From IMG/VR virus record IMGVR_UViG_3300046779_000879, positions 64,001 to 128,000 of that record: a stretch of DNA of 64,000 bases; one strand, written 5' to 3'. Numbering within the stretch: the stretch's first letter is position 1; each line of letters opens with the position of its first letter. This stretch comes from a virus. The translations under genes and the position numbers were made by a program. This document shows, piece by piece, positions 5,598 through 30,126 of the stretch. The notes below the pieces were generated by a model. That model was not told where the DNA came from and did not search any database. It saw nothing but the letters and a program-made list of their open reading frames with translations.

Positions 5598-6605
5598 TTA
5601 TTTTAATTTTTCTAACTCTGAATAGATTTGTTCTATCTGTGAGTCATATCTTCTACTATCGTTTTGCTCTATTAAATTAGCATATTCTATAAACAACAAA
5701 TCTTTTCTAAAAGAATCTTCATAATTATTTTTATTATATAAAAGAGTATTCATTCTATCTTTTAGTTTACAAAATTCATATACCAAAGACTCAGCATATT
5801 CACCAATTAGTTTTTTGATTTCTTCCCGTTTAACATTATCACTACCATTATATTGATAATGTTCTGTTCCATATACAGAATGATATAGTCCAGCAGCACA
5901 CACTTCTTTTGTATGTCCTAATTGCTCTAAAAGTAAAGAAACTCTATACAAATGTTCAAAAAATGTTTTTCCAGAATGTTTTAAATCAATGCTTTGTTTA
6001 AAGATAAAATCGACCTCTTCGCTTAAACAAGAATGATCAATAGTTTTAAATACTAATACACTTCTAAGTTCTGGACAAATTCTACTTAATGGTCTAGCAG
6101 AATGAAATTTATTCGAATCAAAAATTAAAACTCTATTTGGTTTTGGTAGTACAGAATATTCTATCTCATTATCAGAATTAAGAATTGTTGTTTCTCCACC
6201 CCAATCTCTATCCCAAGTTTTATTTAAATAAACAATAATAGTTTCTGTCAAAACACTAGAACCAAATTTTTTTAGAATCCAGTTATCATCTACGTGATAA
6301 TATGCATCAGTACCAAAAGTATAACCATTGATATATGATCTTAAAAGACATCGTTTACCAATTTTAGATTGAATAGCCGACCATAATAGATCTACTTCTT
6401 GATGTGATGATATAAAGGGCATAACACTATGATCATAATAATGAAATTTACTGTTGCTTAAAATGTTTTTATTCCAGTGTCCAAAGTCGTAAGATTTATC
6501 AACATTAGACTTTCCACCATAAGTTAATCCACTCTCTACATATCTTGACCTAATATTTGATATTAGGTTATCACATTCATCTAACTGCAATAAAATAGTA
6601 CTCAT
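5598..6605 (-). CDS. 2OG-Fe(II) oxygenase fused to C-terminal HD-like (DUF6817-like) domain
   Basis: YHVD, WDRDWGGET, FHSAR, RSVLVFK; then HSGKTFFEHL...AGLYHSVYGT. Confidence 0.75.
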   Translation of the reverse strand: MSTILLQLDECDNLISNIRSRYVESGLTYGGKSNVDKSYDFGHWNKNILSNSKFHYYDHSVMPFISSHQEVDLLWSAIQSKIGKRCLLRSYINGYTFGTDAYYHVDDNWILKKFGSSVLTETIIVYLNKTWDRDWGGETTILNSDNEIEYSVLPKPNRVLIFDSNKFHSARPLSRICPELRSVLVFKTIDHSCLSEEVDFIFKQSIDLKHSGKTFFEHLYRVSLLLEQLGHTKEVCAAGLYHSVYGTEHYQYNGSDNVKREEIKKLIGEYAESLVYEFCKLKDRMNTLLYNKNNYEDSFRKDLLFIEYANLIEQNDSRRYDSQIEQIYSELEKLK

Positions 6606-7285
6606 AATTGTCTATCCAATTTTTTAATAATTGGGAATACCTCAGCAATAACTTTAGCACATTCAAGTGCAACTATCTGATGTTCTTTTTGTGTACCATT
6701 TGCACTGCGTAATTCAATAAAGTGAATCCAACTACGCAGTGTACCATTCATGTATAAACGACTAACTGTATTGCCTTCTGGTAGAATTGCTCTTGCTTGT
6801 TCTTTAGCAATTCCTTGACCAATCGCCCAGTCATACGTCTTTATTACTAGTGCTAGAATTTCTCTTTGCCTGTGACGCCACTCTTCAGCAATATTCTGTC
6901 CAGCAATGGTGGCTGGTAACTCTACGCTATTTTGACGATTGGTTTCGTCTTGGAGTCTGGCTTCCCTAAGGACAAATGATAAGTCCTTGGTGGGATCTGC
7001 GTAGCGTTGGCTGAATTCTTGAAAACTAAAAGAGCGGTGACGCAAGATTTGTCTTGCGATATCACGAGTAGTTTCTATTTCTAAACACGCACTGACCATT
7101 TCTAATGGTGACCAATGGCTGTGTTTGATAAGATACTTAATTAACTTCTCTGATGTCTCTGTGTTGAACTGGTTGGATGGATTTGATACACGAGCACAAA
7201 AAGCAACTAGCTCTTGTGCGTCAATCAAACCCTCATCATACATTTCATCTGATGGTTTAGAATAACTAATCAATTTCACTTTCAC
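6602..7285 (-). CDS. thyX: flavin-dependent thymidylate synthase
   Basis: HWSPLE, RQILRHRSFSFQEFSQRY signature. Confidence 0.97.
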   Translation of the reverse strand: MKVKLISYSKPSDEMYDEGLIDAQELVAFCARVSNPSNQFNTETSEKLIKYLIKHSHWSPLEMVSACLEIETTRDIARQILRHRSFSFQEFSQRYADPTKDLSFVLREARLQDETNRQNSVELPATIAGQNIAEEWRHRQREILALVIKTYDWAIGQGIAKEQARAILPEGNTVSRLYMNGTLRSWIHFIELRSANGTQKEHQIVALECAKVIAEVFPIIKKLDRQL

Positions 7286-13942: not shown

Positions 13943-16219
13943 TTAAAATACGCTAGGCTGTGAACCTTGAGTATACTTTGAGTGAGACATACGTGCCTTC
14001 TCAACTTTACGAACACGTGGAGCAAGACGAGTGGCAATACGTCCAATAAGTGCTTTACGTTGTTCTAATGTTCTTTCGATTCTTTCTTTCTCACCAACAG
14101 AAAGTTTACTCGCATCACGACCACGTAGTAGACGTTGCTTCATTAGTTTAATTGCAAGGCGACGTGCACGTTTGTTAATTGTTGCAGTGTTTGAGTAACG
14201 CTTCAACGCAATTTTAGTTGCACGTTCACGTTTTGCTGCAGTGCGACGAATACGGAACTTTGCTTTCATTCTTTCGATACGAGAAAGGACTTCCATGATT
14301 GCTTGTTCATCAAGAGCATCTTCTTCAGGTGACTTTGGAATCTCTTCGCCAGTTTCATCATCGACTAAACCAAGTTCGTCTTCACCGTACTCGTCCATAA
14401 TTTCTTCGTCAGAAAGATTACCAATCATGGCTTCGATTTCTTTATCATCGATATCATCTTCTTCTGATGTTTCTAGAGGAGTATTTGGAGTGGCAACTTC
14501 AATCGTTTGATCTTCTTCTTTAAAGAATGGATCAAATGTAGGTTTTAGTTGAGTTTGATCAATTGATTTATCGTCACAAACACATGGAGATTTTTCGCAT
14601 TCTTCACAAATATCATCTTCAAATTCTATTTCTTCACCAATTGCTTTTCTTAACCCACGAATGGCAAAATCATGCGATTTTAAATGCGCTGGACCTGCCC
14701 ATTCTCCTGAATGTTTCCTTAAAGAATCTCTCTCTTTAGTTAAATGATGTATAATTTCTTTTGTTTTAGAGGTGCCATGCTTCTTTGCTATGTCAGAGTA
14801 ATTAGACTGTCCTTTGATATGAGTATCATACACTGGCGTAGTAGAAGATTCTTTTAATCTTTCTCTCTCTGACTTTTGCTTGTTTGCTAAAGATTCTTTT
14901 TCTTGTGCATGTTTAGCCATTAGATTTGCTTTGGCAACTTCATTTGACTTTGGATCAGGAGTGCTATTTTCTGCAACACTTTGCATTTTTGATAAGAAAG
15001 ATTTAGCAAGTGCCTTTTGTTTGGCAGTGTGTTCTGGATCTGTTTCAATATGTTGAGCAGTTAATTCATGACCACCTTCTTTACCGTAAGTAGTCATACC
15101 TTTCTTCATAATCTTTTTAGCGATCTCAAAACCATGTTGTTCACCAAGATGATATTTAACTTTACGACGACGTAGATTATCTTGACCACCTGGAGATACT
15201 AAAGTGTGTCCAACTTCTCTTTTATCTGCTGCATGTGAATCATAGTCAGCATCAATATCAGACTCGTTATCTTTCTTATGGTCAGCTTGAGATTCTTTAC
15301 CTTTGTGTTGCTCTTCTTTAATCTTCTGTGCCTTAGTGTAATTATAGAAAGTGATCATTCCCTTCTTCACTGTTTTCTCGGGAAACTTACCAACTTCACT
15401 GGTTGGTTCAGAAGTCTTGGTATCGATCTTGTCTGTACCATTTGGTTGAATTGGTGCTTCTGTTAGGTTTGATTCGTTCATTTCTTTTTCTTCTGTAGGT
15501 TTAACATCTTGAATCCATTTGGAAATCAATTTGCCTGTTGATTCTTTTAACAACAAATGATTAGAGCCACGCTTTACAATTGTAAATTTCTCACCATTTG
15601 ATTCTACGATATCACCTTCGTTAAAAATTTCACCACGGAAATACTTCTCACGCAGTTTATCTTTAACCAAGACTATCTGTTCTTTAATAGGCTCAAGACC
15701 TAGACCAGTACGCATCTCATTCATTAGACGTTTACCATCAATATCACGAATGGTGCTTGGTAATCTCTTTTTAAAGTTTTCGTAGATACCCTTTGAAGCA
15801 AACTGCCTCATTTTAGTATTGTCTGCTTCTGGATCTTTATCTACAGGAATAAGTTCTACATTCTGTAGCTTACGCATTTCTGTGATTTGATCAGTTCCAG
15901 CAACAAGGATAATCTTCTTGTACTTCTTATGTAACTCTGTAATAACTTCTTGTAGATTTGATTCGTTGAGTGACTTAAACTTAGTCTTAGGGAACATTAG
16001 ATTAAGGTAATGTTCCTTTTTGTCCTCTTGAATCAGACTATTTTTAGATGGGGATGTATAGATAACGTGTGCGGAACTCTTCTGTTCTGCCAGTTTTTTG
16101 ACTGTCTTTACCAATAATTCGTGACCAACAGTCGGAGGGTTAAATTCTCCAACTGCGCATACAATGGTATTGGACGGTAGTTCTCTGATTAACTGTTTGT
16201 AATCTTTCATTTTATCCAT
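13943..16219 (-). CDS. cytidylyltransferase-like domain protein fused to head-protein segments
   Basis: GEFNPPTVGH (HIGH-like), LREKYFRGEIF module, acidic linkers, basic C-terminus. Confidence 0.65.
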   Translation of the reverse strand: MDKMKDYKQLIRELPSNTIVCAVGEFNPPTVGHELLVKTVKKLAEQKSSAHVIYTSPSKNSLIQEDKKEHYLNLMFPKTKFKSLNESNLQEVITELHKKYKKIILVAGTDQITEMRKLQNVELIPVDKDPEADNTKMRQFASKGIYENFKKRLPSTIRDIDGKRLMNEMRTGLGLEPIKEQIVLVKDKLREKYFRGEIFNEGDIVESNGEKFTIVKRGSNHLLLKESTGKLISKWIQDVKPTEEKEMNESNLTEAPIQPNGTDKIDTKTSEPTSEVGKFPEKTVKKGMITFYNYTKAQKIKEEQHKGKESQADHKKDNESDIDADYDSHAADKREVGHTLVSPGGQDNLRRRKVKYHLGEQHGFEIAKKIMKKGMTTYGKEGGHELTAQHIETDPEHTAKQKALAKSFLSKMQSVAENSTPDPKSNEVAKANLMAKHAQEKESLANKQKSERERLKESSTTPVYDTHIKGQSNYSDIAKKHGTSKTKEIIHHLTKERDSLRKHSGEWAGPAHLKSHDFAIRGLRKAIGEEIEFEDDICEECEKSPCVCDDKSIDQTQLKPTFDPFFKEEDQTIEVATPNTPLETSEEDDIDDKEIEAMIGNLSDEEIMDEYGEDELGLVDDETGEEIPKSPEEDALDEQAIMEVLSRIERMKAKFRIRRTAAKRERATKIALKRYSNTATINKRARRLAIKLMKQRLLRGRDASKLSVGEKERIERTLEQRKALIGRIATRLAPRVRKVEKARMSHSKYTQGSQPSVF

Positions 16220-18233: not shown

Positions 18234-19141
18234 ACGATTCTCCAACCATTACGATATATCATCTGTATGGCTCCATTGTTAATTTGAATTATGAAACCAC
18301 CAGCATCGTTATCAACAGTCCCAAGTACGGTAATAGGATTGATTTCTGCGTCGCCATCTTCATCTTTAATGATTAACATTCTACCAGAATTGGCAGATGA
18401 TGGTAGTGTTATTGTTACTGGACCAGCATAGTTCACACCAATGTAGTAGTCACTATCTTGTACTGTATATGTCGGTGTTGTTACTTCAGTTGTATTATAT
18501 ACAACTTCGTATGGATTGATTTCATCAAATACAAATTTCTTGCGAGCACCATCATACTTTAACCAGCGTCCATCTAATATGGTTTCTCTGGCGACATCGT
18601 CAAGGTATCTAAGATTAACTTCACCAGATCCTGGACCAGCATTGTTAATCTTACCGATCCATTGCTCAAGGAATTTAATCTTGTTATTGATTAGTTGAAA
18701 TTCTCTCTGCGAACTATCTTCTTTAGGAGTTTCAAACTGAGGCGACTTTAAGTATTTTTCAATAGAAGGTAAATCAGCAATGGCTGGATGTTGAGTCTCA
18801 GCTGGAACATCTCCAATCGGAGTTGGGAGTGGTTTAGTTTCAATAAGAACTTCCTCAACTAATTGAGGGTTTTCTTGAATGATTTCTTCTTTTCTATTCT
18901 TTAGAGATGCTAGTTCTGCAAATAAAGAATCAAAATCTGTTTTAACATTTTCTTTAATGTCAGATTCTAATTTTCTATTCTTCTGAACGACAGGATCTTT
19001 GTCCTTTAAATGTGACAATTGGGAGAATAATCCTCCCAAGTCTTCTTTAATATTTTCTTTTATCTCTCTATTCTTAACAGCAACAGGATCTTTTTGTTTA
19101 CCCTCTGCCATTAATTTGAGGAAATCATTTAATTCACTCAT
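18230..19141 (-). CDS. hypothetical protein with C-terminal tail-fibre-like repeat
   Basis: GSGEVNLRYLDDV and YYIGVN..TITLP..GRMLIIKDE. Confidence 0.55.
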   Translation of the reverse strand: MSELNDFLKLMAEGKQKDPVAVKNREIKENIKEDLGGLFSQLSHLKDKDPVVQKNRKLESDIKENVKTDFDSLFAELASLKNRKEEIIQENPQLVEEVLIETKPLPTPIGDVPAETQHPAIADLPSIEKYLKSPQFETPKEDSSQREFQLINNKIKFLEQWIGKINNAGPGSGEVNLRYLDDVARETILDGRWLKYDGARKKFVFDEINPYEVVYNTTEVTTPTYTVQDSDYYIGVNYAGPVTITLPSSANSGRMLIIKDEDGDAEINPITVLGTVDNDAGGFIIQINNGAIQMIYRNGWRIV

Positions 19142-20928
19142 TACTTCATCGCTTTTCGTAGGTCATTATACAACGCATCTTTGTGTTCTGGTTTCATCTG
19201 TGAAGATAATGCAGCATGAAATTCTTTCTTCTTACCAGTGGATGCTAACTCTCTTAATTTAGTTCCAGAGATACCAGCTACACCTTTAGCATTCTCGTCA
19301 CGTTGACCAGATGAATGCATGGTGATTGATTTAAAGTTAAAGTGCCCATGAGAAGACTCTTTACCATTATACTTCTTGAGCATCTCAACCATACTCTCAC
19401 GATCTGAACCGCCAACAAAGTGTAGATGTTTAACACCTTTGTTGTATAGATCAACTGCATGGTGAAGGATTGTTGGTTTACTCTTGTCTGCTACTTCAAT
19501 GTTAGTTCCAGGGAATGCATTCTTAGCATGTTTTAACTTCTGCTCTGGACTTAGTGGATTCTTACCATCTTTAGTATTGTGTGAATGAGAAAGAATCAAT
19601 GTATGGTCACCACCAACTTCTTTGGCAGTTTTCTTTAATTGATTAACAACTTGTTCATGTCCAGCAGTTGGAGGATTCATACGACCAAATGCGATGGTAT
19701 GATGTTTCTCGTCTGGCTCTTTGGCTGGAGCACGTGACTTCAATAGATTCTGACGAGCAAATTCTGCACGATTGACCAACTTGGTTGGCTCAGTTGTACC
19801 TTTGTGAGTATGATTGTAAACAAAACCTTCTGGCTTAGAAGCAACACCACCGATGGCATGTTCATAAGATCCTTCGTTGGATTCTAGAGTCTTAACCAAT
19901 TCATTCTTAGCATTGGCTAAGTGACCATGCATCTTTAAAAGATTTTCGTAATGTTCAGCATTCTTTTGAATGTGTTTAACATGACCACTCAACTCAGCAA
20001 GTTTAGCGTTTTGAGACTTCTCAGTTTTAAGTTTACCAATAATCTTTTCGTATTTACCAGCGATGTGTTTTTGTAAACCTTCAGCGGATGGAGTGCTACC
20101 ATCACGAACTGTTTGATTAATGTATGTGCTCAAGTGTCCAGCTTCACCAGAGTGTTCTGGGTGGATGGCATTATACATTTTAGTACCATGCTTTTCGTGA
20201 ATTGTTTTTGCTTTGGATAGTTCTGAAAGAACTTTGTCTTGAGATTCTTGAGGATACTTTGCACCACTGGCATCGTAAGAAGCAGTGTGGTGAAATACGT
20301 GATCGTGTTTACCAAACTCATCATCACTAACATTGCCAGTGGCACGCATACTGCTGAGAGTATTACCTTCGTATTTGGTATGAGTAACTACACCCAACTT
20401 GGCTTTGTGAATTGCTGCAGCTTTGTCGCCATGTGCAGTATAAGTGATAGTGTTTGGAGTGAAGGAAGCAGATCCGCTTTTACCTTTCTTGACATCAGGT
20501 TTAGTAAACATCACGTCACCCTGATAAACACCCTTCTTTGGAGCAACTTTTGGTAAATGCTCAAGACCAGCTTTTAGTTTTTCTACAAGACCTGGAGCAT
20601 GTCCATGATTCTTTTCTACATCTTCAGGTGTGTAGTTTAATTTTGGATTCTTATTGAACGCAGACTTGGAAGCAACAAAGAACTTACCAGTCTCTGGATG
20701 ATGACCATAAACAATAGATGGCGAACCATCGTATTTCATCGTCAACTTGTTGGATTGCTTACCTTGTTTGGTATGGAAGTGTGCACCATGGAGGGCATCG
20801 TATGCATGATGGAAACCTTCTGCTCCGTGGAACAGAGGTCTGTCTTCTGCATGAGTAATGTGCTTGAGTTTAGCACCCTCTTCCTCTACACCTTCGATTA
20901 AAAAATCATTGAATCCTAACACTTTCAT
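19141..20928 (-). CDS. His-rich two-domain protein (N-terminal KYDG domain plus C-terminal cytidylyltransferase-like domain)
   Basis: TMKYDGSP..QGD..EGFV..KLVNR (ligase/capping-type nucleotidyltransferase-like motifs); FGRMNPPTAGH, GSDR, ISGTKLR. Confidence 0.7.
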   Translation of the reverse strand: MKVLGFNDFLIEGVEEEGAKLKHITHAEDRPLFHGAEGFHHAYDALHGAHFHTKQGKQSNKLTMKYDGSPSIVYGHHPETGKFFVASKSAFNKNPKLNYTPEDVEKNHGHAPGLVEKLKAGLEHLPKVAPKKGVYQGDVMFTKPDVKKGKSGSASFTPNTITYTAHGDKAAAIHKAKLGVVTHTKYEGNTLSSMRATGNVSDDEFGKHDHVFHHTASYDASGAKYPQESQDKVLSELSKAKTIHEKHGTKMYNAIHPEHSGEAGHLSTYINQTVRDGSTPSAEGLQKHIAGKYEKIIGKLKTEKSQNAKLAELSGHVKHIQKNAEHYENLLKMHGHLANAKNELVKTLESNEGSYEHAIGGVASKPEGFVYNHTHKGTTEPTKLVNRAEFARQNLLKSRAPAKEPDEKHHTIAFGRMNPPTAGHEQVVNQLKKTAKEVGGDHTLILSHSHNTKDGKNPLSPEQKLKHAKNAFPGTNIEVADKSKPTILHHAVDLYNKGVKHLHFVGGSDRESMVEMLKKYNGKESSHGHFNFKSITMHSSGQRDENAKGVAGISGTKLRELASTGKKKEFHAALSSQMKPEHKDALYNDLRKAMK

Positions 20929-20934
20929 ACCTTT

Positions 20935-20963
20935 ATTATACCCTAATTTGCAATATTTGTCAA
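20935..20963 (-). promoter_or_regulatory. consensus sigma70 promoter
   Basis: Perfect TTGACA-N17-TATAAT. Confidence 0.85.
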
Positions 20964-20970
20964 GCAATAA

Positions 20971-23045: not shown

Positions 23046-23762
23046 TTATTTAGGTCTTCTGGATGCCCTAATAGTTCTTTCGTATTTGCGTTCCCACTTA
23101 CCCACTTGCTGGATAATCTTTTGAATAGCGTGGTTATTACGATAATCGTAATTGAAAGCCTTGAGGATGTAATGGAAGGTATTTGAGTCTCGCTTCGTTT
23201 TGGATCTAGCGAGTAATTCTGACACTGGTACATTTGGTTTAAACATCTTATAGTCTAAAAATATACAATGTGCATATGCTTGAATCTCATCAAACTCTGA
23301 CAGATATCTTCTCTCTGCGTCTTTTTTGACTTGACCTATTTTTTTGTATGGAACAATGTAGTTGCTCCACTCATCATCACGTCTATCGTATTGCATAAAG
23401 TGGATTAATTCATGCATTTCTACTTGAATTAGTTTAAACTTAAACCTTTCCCATGAACGAGGGGTGAATGGGAAAGAGTCGTAGTGTTCAGTGTGAATTT
23501 GTAAAATACACTGTCGAGTTTCTGGATCGTACTCTCCACCTACAGCAACATGTGTCTCAAAGTACTTGGCTTTGGACTTTTCTTTGAACCAAACTACTTT
23601 AGTTCTCCACTTTCTAAAGTAGTTTGATAGACCTTTGGAATCGTTGCGATACTTGTCTAGGTCTACCCATATTTTCGCAGGGTTGAACTTAGCCCTAAAT
23701 GGACGCTCGTAAAAATTGAGCATTTCCATCCAGTCATAGTTTGATTGTTCTAGGAATTTCAT
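23046..23762 (-). CDS. putative zincin metallopeptidase
   Basis: MHELIHFMQ (HExxH) with downstream EIQAYA. Confidence 0.6.
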   Translation of the reverse strand: MKFLEQSNYDWMEMLNFYERPFRAKFNPAKIWVDLDKYRNDSKGLSNYFRKWRTKVVWFKEKSKAKYFETHVAVGGEYDPETRQCILQIHTEHYDSFPFTPRSWERFKFKLIQVEMHELIHFMQYDRRDDEWSNYIVPYKKIGQVKKDAERRYLSEFDEIQAYAHCIFLDYKMFKPNVPVSELLARSKTKRDSNTFHYILKAFNYDYRNNHAIQKIIQQVGKWERKYERTIRASRRPK

Positions 23763-23782: not shown

Positions 23783-24388
23783 TTACCCTAATTGACCCTC
23801 TAAAAAGGTTAGAACTTTCCCCTGCTCCTCTAAGTTAGTGTTTGCAAACTCAGTAATATAGGACATCAATTCGAAATTAGATAATAGATTACTATATTTA
23901 GTCTCTCGCCCTCTTAGGAATTGTTCAGATTGGTCTGAACCACGATCAATATAACGCTGTTCTAGGATCTCTTTAGGTGCTTTGAGATAGACAATCTGTA
24001 GGTCGGTATTCGGTAGACCCATACAGAACTCTAGGAATGACTGATTAAAAACTCGATCTCCTTCGAAAAGAATGTTACAGTTATGCGTCTGGATCCACTC
24101 TTGTAGGTTCGGCTGGACTGCCATCGAAAGGCGATCTGTTCCAGCGAATGTTTCGCCATCTTCATACTTACCTAGAATGTAAAGATCTCGCTCTGTATTA
24201 TATGAAGCTGAAACTAACTTGGCAGGTTCAGTGGCAATCCACTGCTTGTTTTCCATAAACTTACGGAACAACGTAGTCTTGCCAGTTCCAGGTGAACCAC
24301 CAACTGCGATAATCTTTCTAGTCTTCATAGGTTTAGTAATTTTCTGAACAGTAATGGTATCTAAAACACCAAGTTTTTCATTAAGCAT
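23783..24388 (-). CDS. P-loop nucleotide kinase, 5-hydroxymethyluracil-DNA kinase-like
   Basis: GGSPGTGKTT Walker A, LGKY..GTDRLS, FEGDR; gene context. Confidence 0.8.
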   Translation of the reverse strand: MLNEKLGVLDTITVQKITKPMKTRKIIAVGGSPGTGKTTLFRKFMENKQWIATEPAKLVSASYNTERDLYILGKYEDGETFAGTDRLSMAVQPNLQEWIQTHNCNILFEGDRVFNQSFLEFCMGLPNTDLQIVYLKAPKEILEQRYIDRGSDQSEQFLRGRETKYSNLLSNFELMSYITEFANTNLEEQGKVLTFLEGQLG

Positions 24389-24767
24389 GTTTCGCTTCCT
24401 CAAGTAATTTCTTTAGCTCATCTTCTGTAAATACCCATACACGACCAATAAAGTGATGTACGTCTGCATCGACATCTCGTTTCTTAGTGAAAGATGTTTT
24501 TTTAATTATCTCTCTTGCAAGATTGCGAGACAAGTTTTCTTTAATCTCATCTGCATATGTTGGAACAGTATCTTTAAGTTTCATCAACTCAAACTCTGTA
24601 ACTTTATGCTCAACAGTCAGAAGATTTAACTCATGTCGTTCCATCAAATCTTCTACAGCAGTTGGTGGTACAGATATCGTTCCATAAGTTGTAGCAGAGG
24701 TTTTGATAGATCCAACAGTCAGTGAATCAATAGGTGTAGTAATAGGTGTAGTAATAGTAGTAATCAT
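24381..24767 (-). CDS. hypothetical protein inside the modification operon
   Basis: Overlaps both neighbours. Confidence 0.6.
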   Translation of the reverse strand: MITTITTPITTPIDSLTVGSIKTSATTYGTISVPPTAVEDLMERHELNLLTVEHKVTEFELMKLKDTVPTYADEIKENLSRNLAREIIKKTSFTKKRDVDADVHHFIGRVWVFTEDELKKLLEEAKHA

Positions 24768-25783
24768 GCGAACATCTCCAATCCATTTAATATAGGTTCT
24801 TCATCATCGAACAGCCACTCTAGATTTTCTAGACGACCTGTTCTTACAAAACTTGAAAATCTTTCTTTATCAATACCACGTTTGTGGTCTAAACGCAAGT
24901 CAATTGTTTCTTCTCTAGCTTGCCATAAAACATTCCAGTCAATACCATACCATCCATCGGACTCAGCTTTGATAATTTCTTCTGCTTGTCTATCAAGATA
25001 GTATCCAAGATACCTTCCGTGATTCTCTCTAAAGATTTTCTTAAAAGAACACAGACAGGTTTCCATGGTAAAGTAATCTATACTCGATGAGAGTTCTGGA
25101 AATCTCGCTTTCGTCTCTGCAAGAATCTCTTTGGCTTGTGACTCAAGATTTCCATACTCTGATGCAGTGAGTTTTCTATCCACACTGTCTTCTTGTCCGA
25201 TGGCATAAAGTAATCCATTACGATGAGAGCGAGAGCCATCATAATCGTCCAGCATGAGAGAAGTAGGATTGATCCGAACACCAGCGGTATGCTTAAGATG
25301 CTGAAGATAAAACCAAGTACTGTAACGACCAAACTTATGCAAGCCAGACTTAACGCTTTGCCACAAGTTATCAAAGTTCGCTTCCTCATTGTGTCCATAG
25401 TAACTTTCCAATCTCTCTCGTTGTGTTCTTCCACCAATAAATTGTTGATAAGATGCGAACATGGCTGGAAGATGTCCCTTGTTCCATTTTGTGTCAGTCT
25501 GATAACGCAGACGTTTGTAGTTGGTTGTGTTCCACTGAGTGGTTCTGTCCACTGTGGCAAGTTCAAAGTCAGGAAACTCATTCATTAATACCCATGCAGT
25601 TGGGAGTTGATATGTGTTACCATATAACCAGCATAACCAAAGTTTCTGCTCATCATTATGTTCATATCGTTTGTTGAGATAGTTCGTACACCAAACTGCT
25701 GGATCGCAGTCATCATACTTTAATGACCACACATACCAACGAATGAACGCTTCCCTACGATTTTGTTCTAAGCGATAATCCAT
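24764..25783 (-). CDS. alpha-glutamyl/putrescinyl thymine pyrophosphorylase clade 2 (amino acid:DNA transferase)
   Basis: DCDP, FGRYSTWFYLQ HhH-like motif, ETCLCSFKK, GRYLGYYLDR. Confidence 0.8.
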   Translation of the reverse strand: MDYRLEQNRREAFIRWYVWSLKYDDCDPAVWCTNYLNKRYEHNDEQKLWLCWLYGNTYQLPTAWVLMNEFPDFELATVDRTTQWNTTNYKRLRYQTDTKWNKGHLPAMFASYQQFIGGRTQRERLESYYGHNEEANFDNLWQSVKSGLHKFGRYSTWFYLQHLKHTAGVRINPTSLMLDDYDGSRSHRNGLLYAIGQEDSVDRKLTASEYGNLESQAKEILAETKARFPELSSSIDYFTMETCLCSFKKIFRENHGRYLGYYLDRQAEEIIKAESDGWYGIDWNVLWQAREETIDLRLDHKRGIDKERFSSFVRTGRLENLEWLFDDEEPILNGLEMFA

Positions 25784-26424
25784 TATACTAAAAATTCTTC
25801 AAGCGAGGGTTGTTCCATTAATGCATCACGCAACCATGCTTTACCGACAGCGTCAATTGCTGCTTGCGTTTTTGCTTTCTTTTTGTCTCCCCACTTATAT
25901 GTTTCTAATGCTTCCGAACGGAATTGATCTCTTGCCTTATAAGGTGGCAGAGCCGAGATTGGATTTGCGATAGCAGCAGCTCTAAATGCGAGTTGCTCAT
26001 TACGAGTGGGGAATAGAGTTTGGTCAGAGCGGAGACTACCTGTGGGGTCAACTGCCCAGAAGATGAGACCATTTCTGTAATGCCAAGTGACTGAAGATGG
26101 CGTACAAGATATTTTAAGTCTTTTAGATTTTCGCTCTTCAACTGCATACCTAATCCAAGATTCCCAACATTTGCTGGCATATCCATTTCCCTCTTTCCCT
26201 TCCAACGTGACTATTTCATACAAATTGGCATATCCATCACGATTGTGTGTGGCAAAAATTAAAGAAACAACTTCTCCATTAACTTCATACGCAAGCGGAG
26301 GTGCTTTGTCATAGTTATGAAAGCGATACCACAATGAATGTGCAGCCGATAAGAACTTGGTGTTCTTACCAGCTGGACTAGTTTTAATTAACTCTTCAAC
26401 TCTCGTTGAATTAACAAAGTTCAT
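25783..26424 (-). CDS. GNAT acetyltransferase
   Basis: NLYEIVTLEGKEGNGYAS acetyl-CoA motif A; WHYRNGL. Confidence 0.75.
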   Translation of the reverse strand: MNFVNSTRVEELIKTSPAGKNTKFLSAAHSLWYRFHNYDKAPPLAYEVNGEVVSLIFATHNRDGYANLYEIVTLEGKEGNGYASKCWESWIRYAVEERKSKRLKISCTPSSVTWHYRNGLIFWAVDPTGSLRSDQTLFPTRNEQLAFRAAAIANPISALPPYKARDQFRSEALETYKWGDKKKAKTQAAIDAVGKAWLRDALMEQPSLEEFLV

Positions 26425-27103
26425 ATTGTAAGTCCACCGCATCTTCAATGACTTCTTTTTCAATAGTCATTGCGAGTTGGTCATCAAATGTAATGTAATG
26501 ATTCATCAAAGTATGAATCGGCAATCCTGGAACTTCTGCTCGTTTTGGAACATCAGCAGTAGAAGTAATTATACAACCATTTGAGATATTTGTCAAGTAT
26601 AATGGACGCTTACCATTGCGATAGAATCTAATAACTTTATCAACATGCAACTCAATTACTGCAAGACTAGAATCTTTCCAACGAACCAATGGACTAATAC
26701 AATCTTCTGCCGTATGCAAAATCAATTCAGTATCGTTTTTAGTTTCGCAATCATATCCATAGAGTTCTTTCCATTTCTCAGGCAACTCTTGAGTAATAAC
26801 TCCATTGTGGACTACCGAAAGATTCTCATTGGCGATGGGTTGATTGAATTCTAAGTCACTGGTACTATAGCGACAGTGACCAATTAGATAAAGACTACCA
26901 TCTTCATTGACATAACTCGGAAAGTTAAATGGAAATTGATCGGCAGGTACTGGTCGCTTCTCAGTGATAATCTTTCCATGTTTAACATAGGAGATTCCAG
27001 TGGCATGCATCCCTCGAATCTTAGACTCAAGGAACACACGATGAAGCATTAAGAAATCCTCGGCACGAGGTTCTTTAATAATTGCTCCAATGACTGAACA
27101 CAT
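26411..27103 (-). CDS. stand-alone class II glutamine amidotransferase / Ntn hydrolase
   Basis: N-terminal MC, RGMHATG, GHCRYST, NQP, HNGVI, NDTE. Confidence 0.88.
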   Translation of the reverse strand: MCSVIGAIIKEPRAEDFLMLHRVFLESKIRGMHATGISYVKHGKIITEKRPVPADQFPFNFPSYVNEDGSLYLIGHCRYSTSDLEFNQPIANENLSVVHNGVITQELPEKWKELYGYDCETKNDTELILHTAEDCISPLVRWKDSSLAVIELHVDKVIRFYRNGKRPLYLTNISNGCIITSTADVPKRAEVPGLPIHTLMNHYITFDDQLAMTIEKEVIEDAVDLQYELC

Positions 27104-28428
27104 TAGAAGAATCCTTCAAGTGAGTTTGACTTTTGCGATTCTGGATGATACTTCATCAATGTATCGTGTCCAAGTTTACTCTCAAGATATTCATACCACT
27201 CATCAGATTCCCACATTGAAGGGCTGACACCATTCCAAAGATGTCGCTGAGAACCATCTTCATATTTTTGATCTGGGTGTTCTTTGTTAAGTCTGCGTTG
27301 TTCAACAAAGTCATAACGGCAGTCTTCGTATTGTTTAGAACCCAACTCAAGCATTTTCTCACGGAAGTAAACAACCAATGAGATTCGTTCTGCTTCTTCA
27401 TCAAGCAATTCAATCTGAGTATTGCCATGCATAACTTCATGGTTGTTAATTAGTAGCAAATCTCCAGGTCTTGGATTGACAGCAACACGATACTCTGGTG
27501 CAACAAGATAACATCCTTTGTAGTTACCATTGTTTGTTAGAGTCAACAGATTTGATAGACCAGAAGTTAAGTCACCTGCATCGTAGTGACATGCAGTTCT
27601 GAAAGATTTATTAACTGTAATAGTAGTAAATGGAGTTCCAGGAACTAAGAATGCAGGATCTAGTTTCTTTGCTGCTTCCATTTGATTATTGTATCTCCAT
27701 GGCAACAAGTCTTTGAAACCTTGCGCAAGTTGCTGGAGGAATGGATATGACATGGCAAACTTTACTGGCTCACGAGCAGTATAAGATGTTGCACGACCAT
27801 AAGGAATGCGAGGATAACGATCGAACCATCCAGCAATACCAGACATAACACCATTGGCATAGGTAGTTGCACAAACATATGCTTTCTCTACTCGTCTGGC
27901 TTCAGCAATCATTTCAGATGCATCTAATTTACGAACTTTCTCGACCCATTCATTGAAGACAAAATTGTCTTTCTTAACTGCTTGAATACCCCAAACATTA
28001 TTTCGTGTAGATGGTTTGTCAGTCTTACCTTGATGTTTGGCTTTAATGGCTTCAATTGGATCTCCATCCAAAGATGCTTTTGGGTTTAAGAAGTAGTCAA
28101 TGATTTCTGATTCATATTCAGTGACCCATTCACGATTACCCAATTTCTCTGCTCTTGGACCTGCAGCCATACCTCTGTTTTGAGTTTCAGTTGCAGCCTC
28201 ACGCAAACCAATGTATGCTTGATCTTGTTGTTCCTTTGTAAAATAATTCTTACGGAACTTCAGAACAATCCTTTCTTCAGAGTATGTCAACTCTGGATGT
28301 CCAGGAATTTCTGGCATATAAACATCACAGTCCTCTTCAATGAGGAAATCATAATGAGACTCATCAGGAAATTGTCCCAACATATGAGTCATATCATGTT
28401 TCTGTTTTGCTACGATTACCTTAGTCAT
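27103..28428 (-). CDS. TET/JBP-family 2OG-Fe(II) DNA pyrimidine dioxygenase
   Basis: FTTITVN..TACHYDAGD (HxD), MHGNT (H), ERISLVVYFRE (R). Confidence 0.85.
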   Translation of the reverse strand: MTKVIVAKQKHDMTHMLGQFPDESHYDFLIEEDCDVYMPEIPGHPELTYSEERIVLKFRKNYFTKEQQDQAYIGLREAATETQNRGMAAGPRAEKLGNREWVTEYESEIIDYFLNPKASLDGDPIEAIKAKHQGKTDKPSTRNNVWGIQAVKKDNFVFNEWVEKVRKLDASEMIAEARRVEKAYVCATTYANGVMSGIAGWFDRYPRIPYGRATSYTAREPVKFAMSYPFLQQLAQGFKDLLPWRYNNQMEAAKKLDPAFLVPGTPFTTITVNKSFRTACHYDAGDLTSGLSNLLTLTNNGNYKGCYLVAPEYRVAVNPRPGDLLLINNHEVMHGNTQIELLDEEAERISLVVYFREKMLELGSKQYEDCRYDFVEQRRLNKEHPDQKYEDGSQRHLWNGVSPSMWESDEWYEYLESKLGHDTLMKYHPESQKSNSLEGFF

Positions 28429-29837: not shown

Positions 29838-30126
29838 CTCCGCCTGTGTATGTCAAATTATTTCGTTCAATACCTTCATAGATTAACTCTTGTAGAATAT
29901 CTCCAATATATTGCTCGAATGATGCTTTATCGGTTAAATCTTTATCATCGTCATCAATGATATCATATTCGAAACGAAGATGAATATTATCAGTTGTTTC
30001 ATTTTCATCGAATTGAACTTTACCGTAAGTATAGATTATACCCTCAAAAGCACCTTCTGTCAACTTTATTGCTTGGAGTCCATCTTGTTTAGAATCCAAC
30101 ACAACGTAACGTGGGTTACTCATCAA
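29794..30126 (-). CDS. conserved T4-like hypothetical protein
   Basis: GIIYTYGKV..YIGDIL; lies between uvsX and 41. Confidence 0.65.
   Translation of the reverse strand: MMSNPRYVVLDSKQDGLQAIKLTEGAFEGIIYTYGKVQFDENETTDNIHLRFEYDIIDDDDKDLTDKASFEQYIGDILQELIYEGIERNNLTYTGGVDENRTKNSEQSDL

What the first reader, a model, noticed from the sequence alone, without database searches (positions are those of the whole stretch)
25783..27103. Stand-alone Ntn/GATase-II plus GNAT as novel base-tailoring steps
The 230-aa protein has the Cys1 nucleophile and HNG motif but no synthase domain, and it overlaps a GNAT. Hypothesis A: it releases NH3 from Gln for the transferase, giving 5-aminomethyl-U. Hypothesis B: it hydrolyses the amide of a Gln/Asn adduct on DNA. 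In either case the GNAT would then acetylate the amine. PaMx11 reaches acetylaminomethyl-U by a flavin-dependent route, so this could be convergent chemistry.
Basis: inference. Interest (0 to 1): 0.7.

Follow-up and report, generated by a model that had tools for sequence, protein, structure and literature searches.

The report
Glutamine-fed thymine hypermodification operon in phage
A lake T4-like phage carries an operon that rebuilds thymine in its own DNA, and its small glutamine-splitting enzyme most likely feeds ammonia to the DNA transferase so that an acetyltransferase can cap the new amine; the gene pairing has been noted in print, but this chemistry has never been tested.

Summary
Window 26411-27103 (-) encodes a 230-aa stand-alone class-II (Ntn) glutamine amidotransferase with all glutamine-binding and catalytic residues. 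It overlaps a 213-aa GNAT at 25783-26424 (-).

Both genes sit in a translationally coupled operon: TET/JBP T-dioxygenase, GATase, GNAT, amino-acid:DNA transferase (AADT), a 128-aa protein, and a P-loop 5hmU-DNA-type kinase. The phage has ThyX. It has no dUMP hydroxymethylase, C5-methylase, flavin lyase or amidoligase.

The main new evidence comes from distant relatives of the GATase:
- In 10 of 10 informative contexts it is next to an AADT (4), fused to one (3), or separated from one only by GNAT or amidoligase genes (3).
- In sibling phages the slot between the GATase and the AADT swaps between a GNAT, an amidoligase plus GNAT, and an amidoligase plus phosphatase. GNATs and amidoligases both acylate amines.

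Best reading (about 0.5): a PurF-like step in which glutamine-derived ammonia replaces the phosphate of 5-phosphomethyl-dU, giving 5-aminomethyl-dU, which the GNAT N-acylates.

The GATase-AADT co-occurrence is already noted in the literature (Lee 2021, O'Toole 2026), but no function has been assigned. I rate it a new variant of a known kind. The scan's first-stage readers noted this same operon on this genome; I saw only titles.

The parts
27103..28428 (-). TET/JBP-type 5-methylpyrimidine dioxygenase (441 aa). It is the presumed post-replicative thymine hydroxylase that makes 5hmU in DNA.
   Evidence: Pfam Tet_JBP 1.6e-26 and phrog_24024 6e-157. It is 46-49% identical to homologues in phages DLP6 and Cr30. 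Its stop overlaps the GATase start as TAATG. The genome has ThyX but no ThyA-type hydroxymethylase, no C5-methylase and no ParB_N.
26411..27103 (-). Stand-alone class-II (Ntn) glutamine amidotransferase domain (230 aa). It is the proposed ammonia donor for the AADT.
   Evidence: Pfam GATase_6/7. NCBIfam partial hits to the AsnB, PurF and GlmS GATase domains. GlmS alignment with Cys1, R30, R78, N100-G101 and D124 in register, all invariant in the family. 832 representatives at 50% clustering. Natural fusions to AADT, amidoligase and GNAT.
25783..26424 (-). GNAT-fold acyl-CoA N-acyltransferase (213 aa) with an extra C-terminal helical region of about 80 aa. It is the proposed N-acylase of the new amine.
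   Evidence: Pfam Acetyltransf_1 4e-4. AF2 pLDDT 94.5. Foldseek top hits are glyphosate N-acetyltransferase, PA4794, RimI and SpeG. Profile hit to RimI in the PDB. It is 48-57% identical to the C-terminal halves of the GATase::GNAT fusions P0273 and P0274. The ATG start gives a 14-nt overlap with the GATase stop.
24764..25783 (-). Amino acid:DNA transferase (AADT / aGPT-Pplase clade 2; 339 aa).
   Evidence: Pfam ADDT 1.6e-23. E241-T242-x-x-C245, D25/D27 and Y54/Y58 align with the catalytic E243/T244/C247, D22/D24 and Y47/Y51 of PaMx11 gp46 (residue roles from PMC11472151). It is 37-43% identical to the AADT halves of GATase::AADT fusions, against about 28% to ViI-type AADTs. It is the only AADT in the genome.
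24381..24767 (-). 128-aa protein of unknown function. It is conserved between AADT and kinase in window-type phages and is weakly similar to a DUF3310 protein that sits after the kinase in the L148 cluster.
   Evidence: No Pfam or PHROG hit. Conserved in L129, L114, L139, L012, L104 and others. BLASTP E 0.009 to the L148 DUF3310 protein.
23783..24403 (-). P-loop nucleotide-kinase-3 family protein (206 aa from a TTG start). It is the presumed 5hmU-DNA kinase that makes 5-phosphomethyl-dU.
   Evidence: Pfam Ploopntkinase3 1.2e-6, also AAA_18 and Zeta_toxin. It keeps its position after the AADT in all sibling cassettes.
23046..23762 (-). 238-aa conserved protein with an invariant HExxH motif. It always follows the kinase in this phage group. 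Function unknown.
   Evidence: Alignment A3 has invariant M116-H117-E118-x-x-H121. No Pfam, PHROG, NCBIfam or PDB hit.
6602..7285 (-). ThyX (flavin-dependent thymidylate synthase). Included as context: the phage makes ordinary dTMP.
   Evidence: PF02511 4e-45 at genome 70632-71222, which is window 6632-7222.

Best explanation
The GATase and the GNAT are two steps of a post-replicative thymidine hypermodification pathway.

Proposed steps:
1. The TET/JBP dioxygenase oxidises T in phage DNA to 5hmU.
2. The P-loop kinase phosphorylates it to 5-phosphomethyl-dU.
3. The AADT attacks C6 with Cys245 and expels phosphate, giving an exocyclic methylene intermediate.
4. The GATase, docked on the AADT, hydrolyses free glutamine at Cys1 and delivers the ammonia as the nucleophile, giving 5-aminomethyl-dU. 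This resembles PurF, where glutamine-derived ammonia displaces pyrophosphate.
5. The GNAT uses an acyl-CoA, most simply acetyl-CoA, to N-acylate the new primary amine, giving 5-acetylaminomethyl-dU or a close analogue.

What is shown: the folds and families, intact catalytic residues, operon structure, and conserved linkage and fusion of this GATase subfamily with AADTs.

What is inferred: ammonia transfer, the identity of the nucleoside, and the acyl donor.
For: 1. The GATase is catalytically intact and resembles true amidotransferases.
- Cys1, R30, R78, N100-G101 and D124 align with GlmS C1, R26, R73, N98-G99 and D123 and are invariant in 50 diverse relatives.
- Its hits are to AsnB, PurF and GlmS domains.
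- There is no GATase_4 (EgtC/YafJ-type) hit even at E<=10.

2. Rosetta-stone fusions exist. P0246, P0275 (11 members) and P0276 are GATase::ADDT proteins. The window's AADT is 37-43% identical to their AADT halves.

3. The linkage is conserved across phages with different replication genes.
- GATase is directly upstream of ADDT in L151, L153, L156 and L157, with no GNAT or recognised amidoligase.
- It is fused to ADDT in L141 and L145.
- It is separated from ADDT only by tailoring genes in the window, L148 and L152.
- Some of these clusters use a ThyA-like hydroxymethylase instead of TET. The GATase therefore goes with the AADT, not with the source of 5hmU.

4. Sibling phages keep TET, GATase, AADT and kinase and swap only the genes between GATase and AADT. 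Variants seen: a GNAT; an amidoligase plus another GNAT; an amidoligase plus LMW phosphatase. GNATs and COOH-NH2 ligases both acylate amines, which fits a primary-amine core product.

5. The window genome has no amidoligase and no DAO-type flavin oxidoreductase. The GATase therefore has no other obvious partner, and the PaMx11 route to the amine is absent.

6. The GNAT model is confident. Its nearest structures are amine N-acetyltransferases. It carries a G-x-A P-loop and a (W/F)-x-Y-x-x-G motif B.

7. In PaMx11, a GNAT acetylates 5-aminomethyl-dU in DNA (PMC8989533).

8. The gp46 residues that hold glycine, W146 and K150, align with Y154 and F158 here. The nucleophile pocket therefore differs.
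Against: - No biochemistry exists for any member of this GATase subfamily.
- Fusion and adjacency show coupling, not ammonia channelling. The same GATase is also fused to amidoligases and to GNATs, so fusion may only reflect a multi-enzyme complex.
- Class-II GATases must be N-terminal in any fusion, so domain order is uninformative.
- The W146/K150 mapping rests on a MAFFT alignment at under 20% identity. Profile methods failed to align gp46. Cr30, which has no such GATase, also lacks the Lys.
- No model of a GATase-AADT interface could be made.
- The single-sequence AF2 model of the GATase was useless (pLDDT 34).
- The GNAT's acyl donor and acceptor are unknown. Its closest structural neighbours include small-molecule and polyamine acetyltransferases, so it could act on a free metabolite instead of DNA.
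Confidence: 0.5

Rival explanations
1. Deamidase reading. The AADT installs glutamine or asparagine through its alpha-amine. The Ntn enzyme then hydrolyses the side-chain amide on DNA, giving an alpha-glutamyl-thymine-like base. The GNAT acetylates the secondary amine or acts elsewhere.
For: AADTs are known to transfer whole amino acids (PMC8989533). Ntn hydrolases can work as plain amidohydrolases. GATase-AADT adjacency fits consecutive steps as well as it fits ammonia channelling.
Against: The invariant D124 and R78 form the pocket for a free alpha-ammonium and alpha-carboxylate. An N-alpha-alkylated glutamine tethered to duplex DNA fits that pocket poorly. The GATase tblastn found no hit in Bacillus phages such as SP10; that SP10 carries alpha-glutamylthymine is from the literature, so that base does not seem to need this enzyme. 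A GATase fused N-terminally to its acceptor enzyme is the classic amidotransferase layout.
Confidence: 0.12
2. EgtC/PuuD-like unmasking. The enzyme removes a gamma-glutamyl protecting group from an amine that was transferred to DNA as a gamma-glutamyl amide. This frees an amine that the GNAT then acylates.
For: Stand-alone class-II GATase domains such as EgtC are gamma-glutamyl amidohydrolases (established knowledge; not tested here). Relatives pair or fuse this GATase with an Amidoligase_2 that could build gamma-glutamyl amides.
Against: The window genome has no amidoligase. Several distant clusters have only GATase plus AADT with no recognised amidoligase. There is no similarity to the EgtC/YafJ-type family GATase_4. 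No source of a gamma-glutamyl amine is evident.
Confidence: 0.1
3. Small-molecule reading. The GATase and/or the GNAT act on a free metabolite before transfer, for example by amidating or mono-acetylating a diamine or amino acid. The AADT then installs a ready-made side chain.
For: The GNAT's nearest solved structures include the polyamine acetyltransferase SpeG and small-molecule acetyltransferases. PhiW-14 and SH-Ab 15599 transfer free polyamines (PMC8989533, PMC13458397).
Against: A 230-aa GATase with no synthase domain cannot amidate a metabolite by itself. Its recurrent fusion partner is the DNA-acting AADT. The GNAT carries an extra Lys-rich helical C-terminal region not covered by any small-molecule GNAT match. 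In PaMx11 the GNAT acts on DNA.
Confidence: 0.13

Closest known systems
PaMx11 5-acetylaminomethyl-dU pathway (gp46 AADT, gp47 FAD lyase, gp48 GNAT, gp49 kinase; Lee et al. 2021, PMC8989533; Wen et al. 2024, PMC11472151)
   Same: It has a kinase and an AADT with the same D-x-D, Y...Y and E-T-x-x-C catalytic constellation, followed by a GNAT. The predicted end product may be the same or a close analogue.
   Different: No FAD lyase is present; a GATase occupies that logical step. 5hmU comes from a post-replicative TET/JBP rather than a dUMP hydroxymethylase. The GNAT is not orthologous to gp48: tblastn found no phage-record hit at E<=1 and hhalign gave only E about 0.01. It is 213 aa with an extra helical region, against 140 aa for gp48.
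Class-II glutamine amidotransferases PurF, GlmS and AsnB
   Same: N-terminal Cys nucleophile, oxyanion Asn-Gly, and the Arg and Asp that bind glutamine. In relatives the domain is fused N-terminally to its acceptor enzyme. The proposed chemistry parallels PurF, where ammonia displaces a phosphate-type leaving group.
   Different: In the window it is a separate 230-aa polypeptide. The proposed acceptor is a base in polymeric DNA held by a Cys-dependent transferase. No ammonia tunnel has been demonstrated.
Phage T-dioxygenase (5mYOX) hypermodification clusters (O'Toole et al. 2026, PMC13229309)
   Same: The paper states that 5mYOX genes of its ParB-dependent subclass (within clade C1) are linked with GATases, P-loop kinases and AADTs. 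The window is a cluster of that kind.
   Different: No ParB_N gene was found in the whole 163.6-kb genome. The paper assigns no function to the GATase or GNAT.
Gat-QueC of phage 9g (dG+ synthesis; Hutinet et al. 2019, PMC6884629)
   Same: It is a phage-encoded glutamine amidotransferase domain that serves a DNA base hypermodification pathway.
   Different: It acts on a different base (7-deazaguanine) and has a different partner (QueC). It is not settled whether Gat-QueC acts before or after the base is inserted into DNA.
LUZ24/tf/PaP3-type phage GAT-II, amidoligase, ATP-grasp and gamma-glutamyl cyclotransferase cassette
   Same: It is a distant (about 25% identity) class-II GATase domain in phages, next to Amidoligase_2 genes.
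   Different: These are 480-530-aa proteins with no annotated AADT, base kinase or TET in the 12.5-kb regions examined. It is a different system and not the window's subfamily.

Membership tests
Class-II (Ntn) glutamine amidotransferase domain | N-terminal Cys1 nucleophile exposed after Met removal | tested here: met
   The protein starts MCSVIG. C2 is invariant in 50 relatives.
Class-II (Ntn) glutamine amidotransferase domain | Oxyanion-hole Asn-Gly, plus the Arg and Asp that bind the alpha-carboxylate and alpha-amino group of glutamine | tested here: met
   N100-G101, R78 and D124 align with GlmS N98-G99, R73 and D123. All are invariant.
Class-II (Ntn) glutamine amidotransferase domain | Works with an acceptor (synthase) domain or subunit that uses the ammonia | tested here: inconclusive
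   The window protein has no synthase domain. Relatives are fused to ADDT, Amidoligase_2 or GNAT, and the gene is AADT-linked in 10 of 10 informative contexts. Ammonia transfer itself is untested.
Class-II (Ntn) glutamine amidotransferase domain | Glutaminase activity | not testable with these tools
   This needs an enzyme assay.
GNAT acyl-CoA N-acyltransferase | GNAT alpha/beta fold | tested here: met
   AF2 pLDDT 94.5 and pTM 0.87. Foldseek gave 180 PDB matches at E<=1e-3, all those listed being GNATs, with TM to target 0.5-0.65.
GNAT acyl-CoA N-acyltransferase | Motif A pyrophosphate-binding loop (Q/R-x-x-G-x-G/A) and motif B Tyr | tested here: inconclusive
   G81-Y-A83 is invariant, but the first position is Glu, not Gln or Arg. 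The distant L142 homologue has the canonical R-N-R-G-L-A. Motif B is W-H-x-R/K-N-G-L, and the Tyr position varies (Y/L/F/K) among close relatives.
GNAT acyl-CoA N-acyltransferase | Acetyl-CoA-dependent acylation of an amine | not testable with these tools
   This needs an assay.
AADT-based thymidine hypermodification system (Lee 2018/2021) | A source of 5hmU in DNA | tested here: met
   A TET/JBP gene heads the operon. ThyX is present, and there is no ThyA-type hydroxymethylase or C5-methylase. Its T-dioxygenase activity is inferred.
AADT-based thymidine hypermodification system (Lee 2018/2021) | A 5hmU DNA kinase | tested here: met
   A P-loop kinase3-family gene sits two genes after the AADT and is conserved there in relatives. 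Substrate is inferred.
AADT-based thymidine hypermodification system (Lee 2018/2021) | An AADT with the catalytic Cys and metal-binding Glu-Thr | tested here: met
   PF18724 1.6e-23. E241-T242-x-x-C245 aligns with gp46 E243-T244-x-x-C247 and is conserved in the family (E241 and C245 invariant, T242 in at least 90%).
PaMx11-type 5-AcNmdU pathway | A FAD-dependent glycinyl-thymine lyase (gp47 type) | tested here: not met
   There is no DAO-family (PF01266) match in the 163.6-kb genome. That gp47 belongs to PF01266 rests on its annotation and was not scanned here.
ParB-dependent 5mYOX subclass (O'Toole 2026) | A co-encoded ParB homologue | tested here: not met
   There is no ParB_N (PF02195) match in the genome. 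A very divergent ParB cannot be excluded.

The most novel reading that the evidence does not exclude
This GATase subfamily and its AADT partner form a two-component, sometimes fused, glutamine-dependent 'DNA aminase'. This would be the first amidotransferase shown to deliver ammonia to a base in polymeric DNA. It would give 5-aminomethyl-dU in one step without the glycine and flavin detour. Sibling lake phages would then diversify that amine through a hot-swappable slot that holds a GNAT, an amidoligase with a GNAT, or an amidoligase with a phosphatase (one variant adds a possible glycosyltransferase), producing a family of different N-acyl-aminomethyl-uracils in otherwise similar genomes.
Probability: 0.45. 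Interest if true: 0.75.

Novelty: new variant of a known kind. Interest (0 to 1): 0.6.

Why it matters
Thymidine hypermodifications protect phage DNA from restriction and CRISPR nucleases, and they supply enzymes for DNA chemistry.

Every characterised AADT installs a preformed amino acid or polyamine. A glutamine-fed AADT would add a new enzymatic logic for modifying DNA, namely ammonia delivery to a polymer-bound electrophile. It would also be a shorter, oxygen-independent route to 5-aminomethyl-dU, which is a useful handle for DNA labelling.

The phage group is abundant in the metagenome collections searched: 1737 near-relatives of the GATase and contigs of 160-187 kb. The swap-able tailoring slot suggests ongoing diversifying selection on the exact side chain. 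That makes it a natural system for studying the arms race with modification-dependent nucleases.

Tried and rejected
- Megablast of the operon against 50,697 phage records found nothing.
- A single-sequence AF2 model of the GATase was useless (pLDDT 34). This used one of the two structure jobs, so no model of a natural GATase::AADT fusion could be made.
- phmmer of the AADT against the PDB did not find PaMx11 gp46, and hhalign of an AADT profile against gp46 failed. Only a MAFFT L-INS-i alignment anchored on conserved motifs gave a residue mapping. I treat the catalytic motifs as reliable and the W146/K150 mapping as tentative.
- The Iyer et al. 2013 paper on aGPT-Pplase systems is not held, so I could not check what it says about GATases.
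- The search for related loci, with a protein or with a diverse alignment, returned only close relatives of 60% identity or more. Distant contexts had to be sampled one at a time, so the '10 of 10' linkage is a small sample. Three further look-ups hit contigs too short to judge (L142, L146, L155).
- I first considered the LUZ24/tf/PaP3 and Vibrio 1.262.O GATase-II genes as relatives. I rejected them as a different, longer family in an amidoligase/ATP-grasp cassette with no annotated AADT nearby.
- I looked for a hidden amidoligase among the unknown window proteins (128, 238, 268 and 406 aa). There was no similarity.
- The 238-aa HExxH protein gave no PDB or family hit.
Full report
**What is there.** The window is part of a 163,642-bp IMG/VR virus record estimated complete. 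It belongs to an uncultured T4-like phage. Family-B DNA polymerase, UvsX and a DnaB-like helicase lie just upstream of the finding on the minus strand. Megablast found no close relative among 50,697 phage records. The genes are nevertheless very common in metagenomes: the GATase has 1737 homologues, many 96-100% identical, on contigs up to 187 kb.

**The operon.** The finding's two ORFs sit inside a tightly packed minus-strand operon:
- TET/JBP dioxygenase, 27103-28428
- class-II GATase domain, 26411-27103
- GNAT, 25783-26424
- amino acid:DNA transferase (AADT, PF18724), 24764-25783
- a 128-aa unknown protein, 24381-24767
- a P-loop kinase3-family protein, 23783-24403
- a conserved 238-aa protein, 23046-23762

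The junctions TET/GATase and GNAT/AADT are TAATG overlaps. GATase and GNAT overlap by 14 nt.

**Checking the observation.**
- The 230-aa protein begins Met-Cys and matches only GATase_6 and GATase_7.
- HMMER aligns it with the E. coli GlmS glutaminase domain. Cys1, R26, R73, N98-G99 and D123 of GlmS correspond to C2, R30, R78, N100-G101 and D124.
- Those positions are invariant in 50 relatives of 31-57% identity.
- NCBIfam sees only the GATase parts of AsnB, PurF and GlmS.
- The GNAT call was weak in Pfam (E 4e-4). An AlphaFold2 model from a 15-sequence alignment is very confident (pLDDT 94.5).
- Foldseek puts that model among amine N-acetyltransferases: glyphosate N-acetyltransferase, PA4794, RimI, SpeG and Ard1.
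- A profile search of the PDB also finds RimI and diamine acetyltransferases, though weakly: E 0.009 for RimI and 0.08-0.9 for the rest.
- About 80 C-terminal residues form extra helices, including a Lys-rich stretch, that no GNAT match covers.

**Where the 5hmU comes from.** The genome encodes ThyX. It has no ThyA-type enzyme that could be a dUMP hydroxymethylase, no C5 cytosine methyltransferase, and no ParB_N protein. The TET/JBP enzyme is therefore best read as a post-replicative thymine dioxygenase. Such enzymes were demonstrated in phages by O'Toole et al. 2026 (PMC13229309). The kinase and AADT are the two signature enzymes of the known thymidine hypermodification pathways (PMC8989533).

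In a MAFFT alignment the AADT conserves the catalytic constellation of the crystallised PaMx11 gp46 (residue roles from PMC11472151; alignment):

| PaMx11 gp46 | Window AADT |
|---|---|
| D22 / D24 | D25 / D27 |
| Y47 / Y51 | Y54 / Y58 |
| E243-T244-x-x-C247 | E241-T242-x-x-C245 |

**What the GATase does: evidence from relatives.** A full HMMER scan of 1.84 billion representatives found 832 relatives, 344 of them below 1e-10. Nearly all are stand-alone proteins of 200-250 aa. The exceptions are the informative ones:
- Three different cluster representatives are GATase::ADDT fusions: P0246, P0275 (11 member sequences) and P0276.
- Two are GATase::Amidoligase_2 fusions: P0150 and P0272.
- Two are GATase fused to a GNAT that is 48-57% identical to the window's GNAT: P0273 and P0274.
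- The window's AADT is 37-43% identical to the AADT halves of the fusions. It is about 28% identical to ViI-type AADTs.

I then sampled contexts of distant GATase representatives at 35-42% identity:

| Locus | Arrangement |
|---|---|
| L151, L153, L156, L157 | GATase immediately upstream of ADDT, usually overlapping; no GNAT or recognised amidoligase; two of them have an LMW phosphatase nearby |
| L141, L145 | GATase fused to ADDT |
| L148, L152 | GATase, amidoligase, GNAT, then ADDT (one extra 436-aa gene before ADDT in L148) |

With the third fusion (P0276, no context retrieved) and the window itself, that makes 10 of 10 informative cases AADT-linked. Three other contigs were too short to judge. 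Several of these clusters use a ThyA-like hydroxymethylase and HMUDK-type kinases instead of TET. The GATase therefore tracks the AADT, not the way 5hmU is made.

**A swappable slot.** My own phmmer annotation of the fetched IMG/VR loci, with Pfam checks, shows this. Sibling T4-like phages keep TET, GATase, AADT, kinase and mostly the 238-aa protein in the same order. They differ only between GATase and AADT:
- the window-type GNAT alone, which is the commonest form (though the sample is biased, because 80 loci were fetched with the GNAT as query);
- an amidoligase plus a different GNAT (L117, L121, L122, L125);
- a more distant amidoligase plus a low-molecular-weight phosphatase (L128, L130, L135);
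- the same preceded by a 362-aa protein with a weak glycosyltransferase hit (L120, L131).

GNATs (acyl-CoA dependent) and COOH-NH2 ligases (ATP dependent) are two alternative ways to acylate an amine. This is what one would expect if the conserved core delivers a primary amine on the base.

The window genome itself has no amidoligase and no DAO-type flavin oxidoreductase. Two things follow. The GATase cannot be serving an amidoligase here. The PaMx11 way of making the amine (glycine transfer, then FAD-dependent lyase) is also absent.

**Most likely mechanism.** Ammonia released from glutamine by the docked GATase then adds to the exocyclic methylene, giving 5-aminomethyl-dU. The GNAT caps the amine with an acyl group, most simply acetyl, as PaMx11 gp48 does. 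The analogy to PurF, where glutamine-derived ammonia displaces a phosphate-type leaving group, rests on established knowledge of that enzyme.

- Shown: folds, intact active sites, operon structure, fusion and linkage.
- Inferred: ammonia transfer, the nucleoside products and the acyl donor.
- Confidence: I put the full scheme at about 0.5. I put the narrower claim that this GATase works directly with the AADT at about 0.85.

**Rivals.**
- Deamidation of a DNA-bound glutaminyl adduct (hypothesis B) is disfavoured. The invariant pocket is built for a free alpha-amino and alpha-carboxylate, and the fusions follow the classical amidotransferase layout.
- EgtC-like removal of a gamma-glutamyl mask is disfavoured. 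The family shows no similarity to GATase_4, and many clusters, including the window, lack a recognisable amidoligase.
- A small-molecule role for the GNAT cannot be excluded, because SpeG-like enzymes are among its structural neighbours.
- A weak point in the argument for hypothesis A: the GATase's fusions to amidoligase and GNAT show that fusion in this system may only mean 'same complex'.

**Comparison with what is known.**
- The closest characterised system is the PaMx11 pathway. The window shares the kinase, AADT and GNAT logic. It replaces the flavin lyase step with a GATase, uses TET rather than a hydroxymethylase, and its GNAT is not orthologous to gp48.
- The gene association itself is not new. 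Lee et al. [quoted passage not shown] O'Toole et al. 2026 list GATases with kinases and AADTs around their ParB-dependent 5mYOX subclass.
- I found no paper in the held library that assigns the GATase a reaction.
- A phage GATase domain serving DNA base modification has a precedent in Gat-QueC for dG+.
- I therefore rate this as a new variant of a known kind, with a specific and testable prediction.

**Earlier scan notes.** A look-up showed that first-stage readers had noted this same operon, and had made the ThyX / no-methylase argument. I had reached that argument independently. Follow-up reports on this stretch were withheld. Nothing in the notes changed my reading.

Noticed in passing
window 23046-23762 (-): A 238-aa protein always follows the kinase in this phage group and has an invariant M-H-E-x-x-H motif (zinc-hydrolase-like). 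It has no Pfam, PHROG, NCBIfam or PDB sequence hit. It could be a further tailoring or repair enzyme of the modification system. One speculative role is clearing trapped AADT-DNA covalent intermediates.
   Followed up: partly
sibling loci L117, L121, L122, L125, L128, L130, L135, L120, L131 (between the GATase and AADT genes): The slot between GATase and AADT is a swap-able cassette: GNAT alone; amidoligase plus a second GNAT type; amidoligase plus LMW phosphatase; or the last form with an added 362-aa possible glycosyltransferase. This suggests that closely related lake phages make different thymine side chains.
   Followed up: partly
L139 / L140 (IMGVR_UViG_3300034073_000285 and 3300035670_004350): There is mosaicism inside the operon. 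In these contigs the GNAT is 96% identical to the window's, while the adjacent GATase is only 61% identical. This implies recombination between divergent GATase alleles right at the gene junction.
   Followed up: no
window 26568-26596 (-): A perfect sigma-70 consensus (TTGACA, 17 nt, TATAAT; 12 of 12) lies inside the GATase ORF about 145 nt upstream of the GNAT start. A second perfect one lies at 30035-30063 (-). They could be T4-type early promoters, or chance. Conservation was not checked.
   Followed up: no
window 13943-16219 (-) and 19141-20967 (-): Two large proteins carry cytidylyltransferase-like (HIGH nucleotidyltransferase) domains. One also has DUF6267. They lie just downstream of the modification operon, among genes with PHROG hits to virion structural and tail-fibre proteins.
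   Followed up: no
L001 (Caulobacter phage Cr30, NC_025422, 55.5-60.7 kb): Cr30 has a homologous TET (46%) and an AADT (28-30%) but no GATase of this family. Between them lie genes annotated as cysteine dioxygenase, with an inositol-1-phosphate synthase gene just beyond the AADT. It is probably a different, uncharacterised TET-initiated thymine hypermodification in a cultured phage.
   Followed up: no
L153, L157, L120, L130, L135: A low-molecular-weight phosphatase (LMWPc) recurs in GATase-AADT clusters that lack a GNAT. It may remove unreacted 5-phosphomethyl groups or act on an acyl-phosphate. Its role is unexplained.
   Followed up: no
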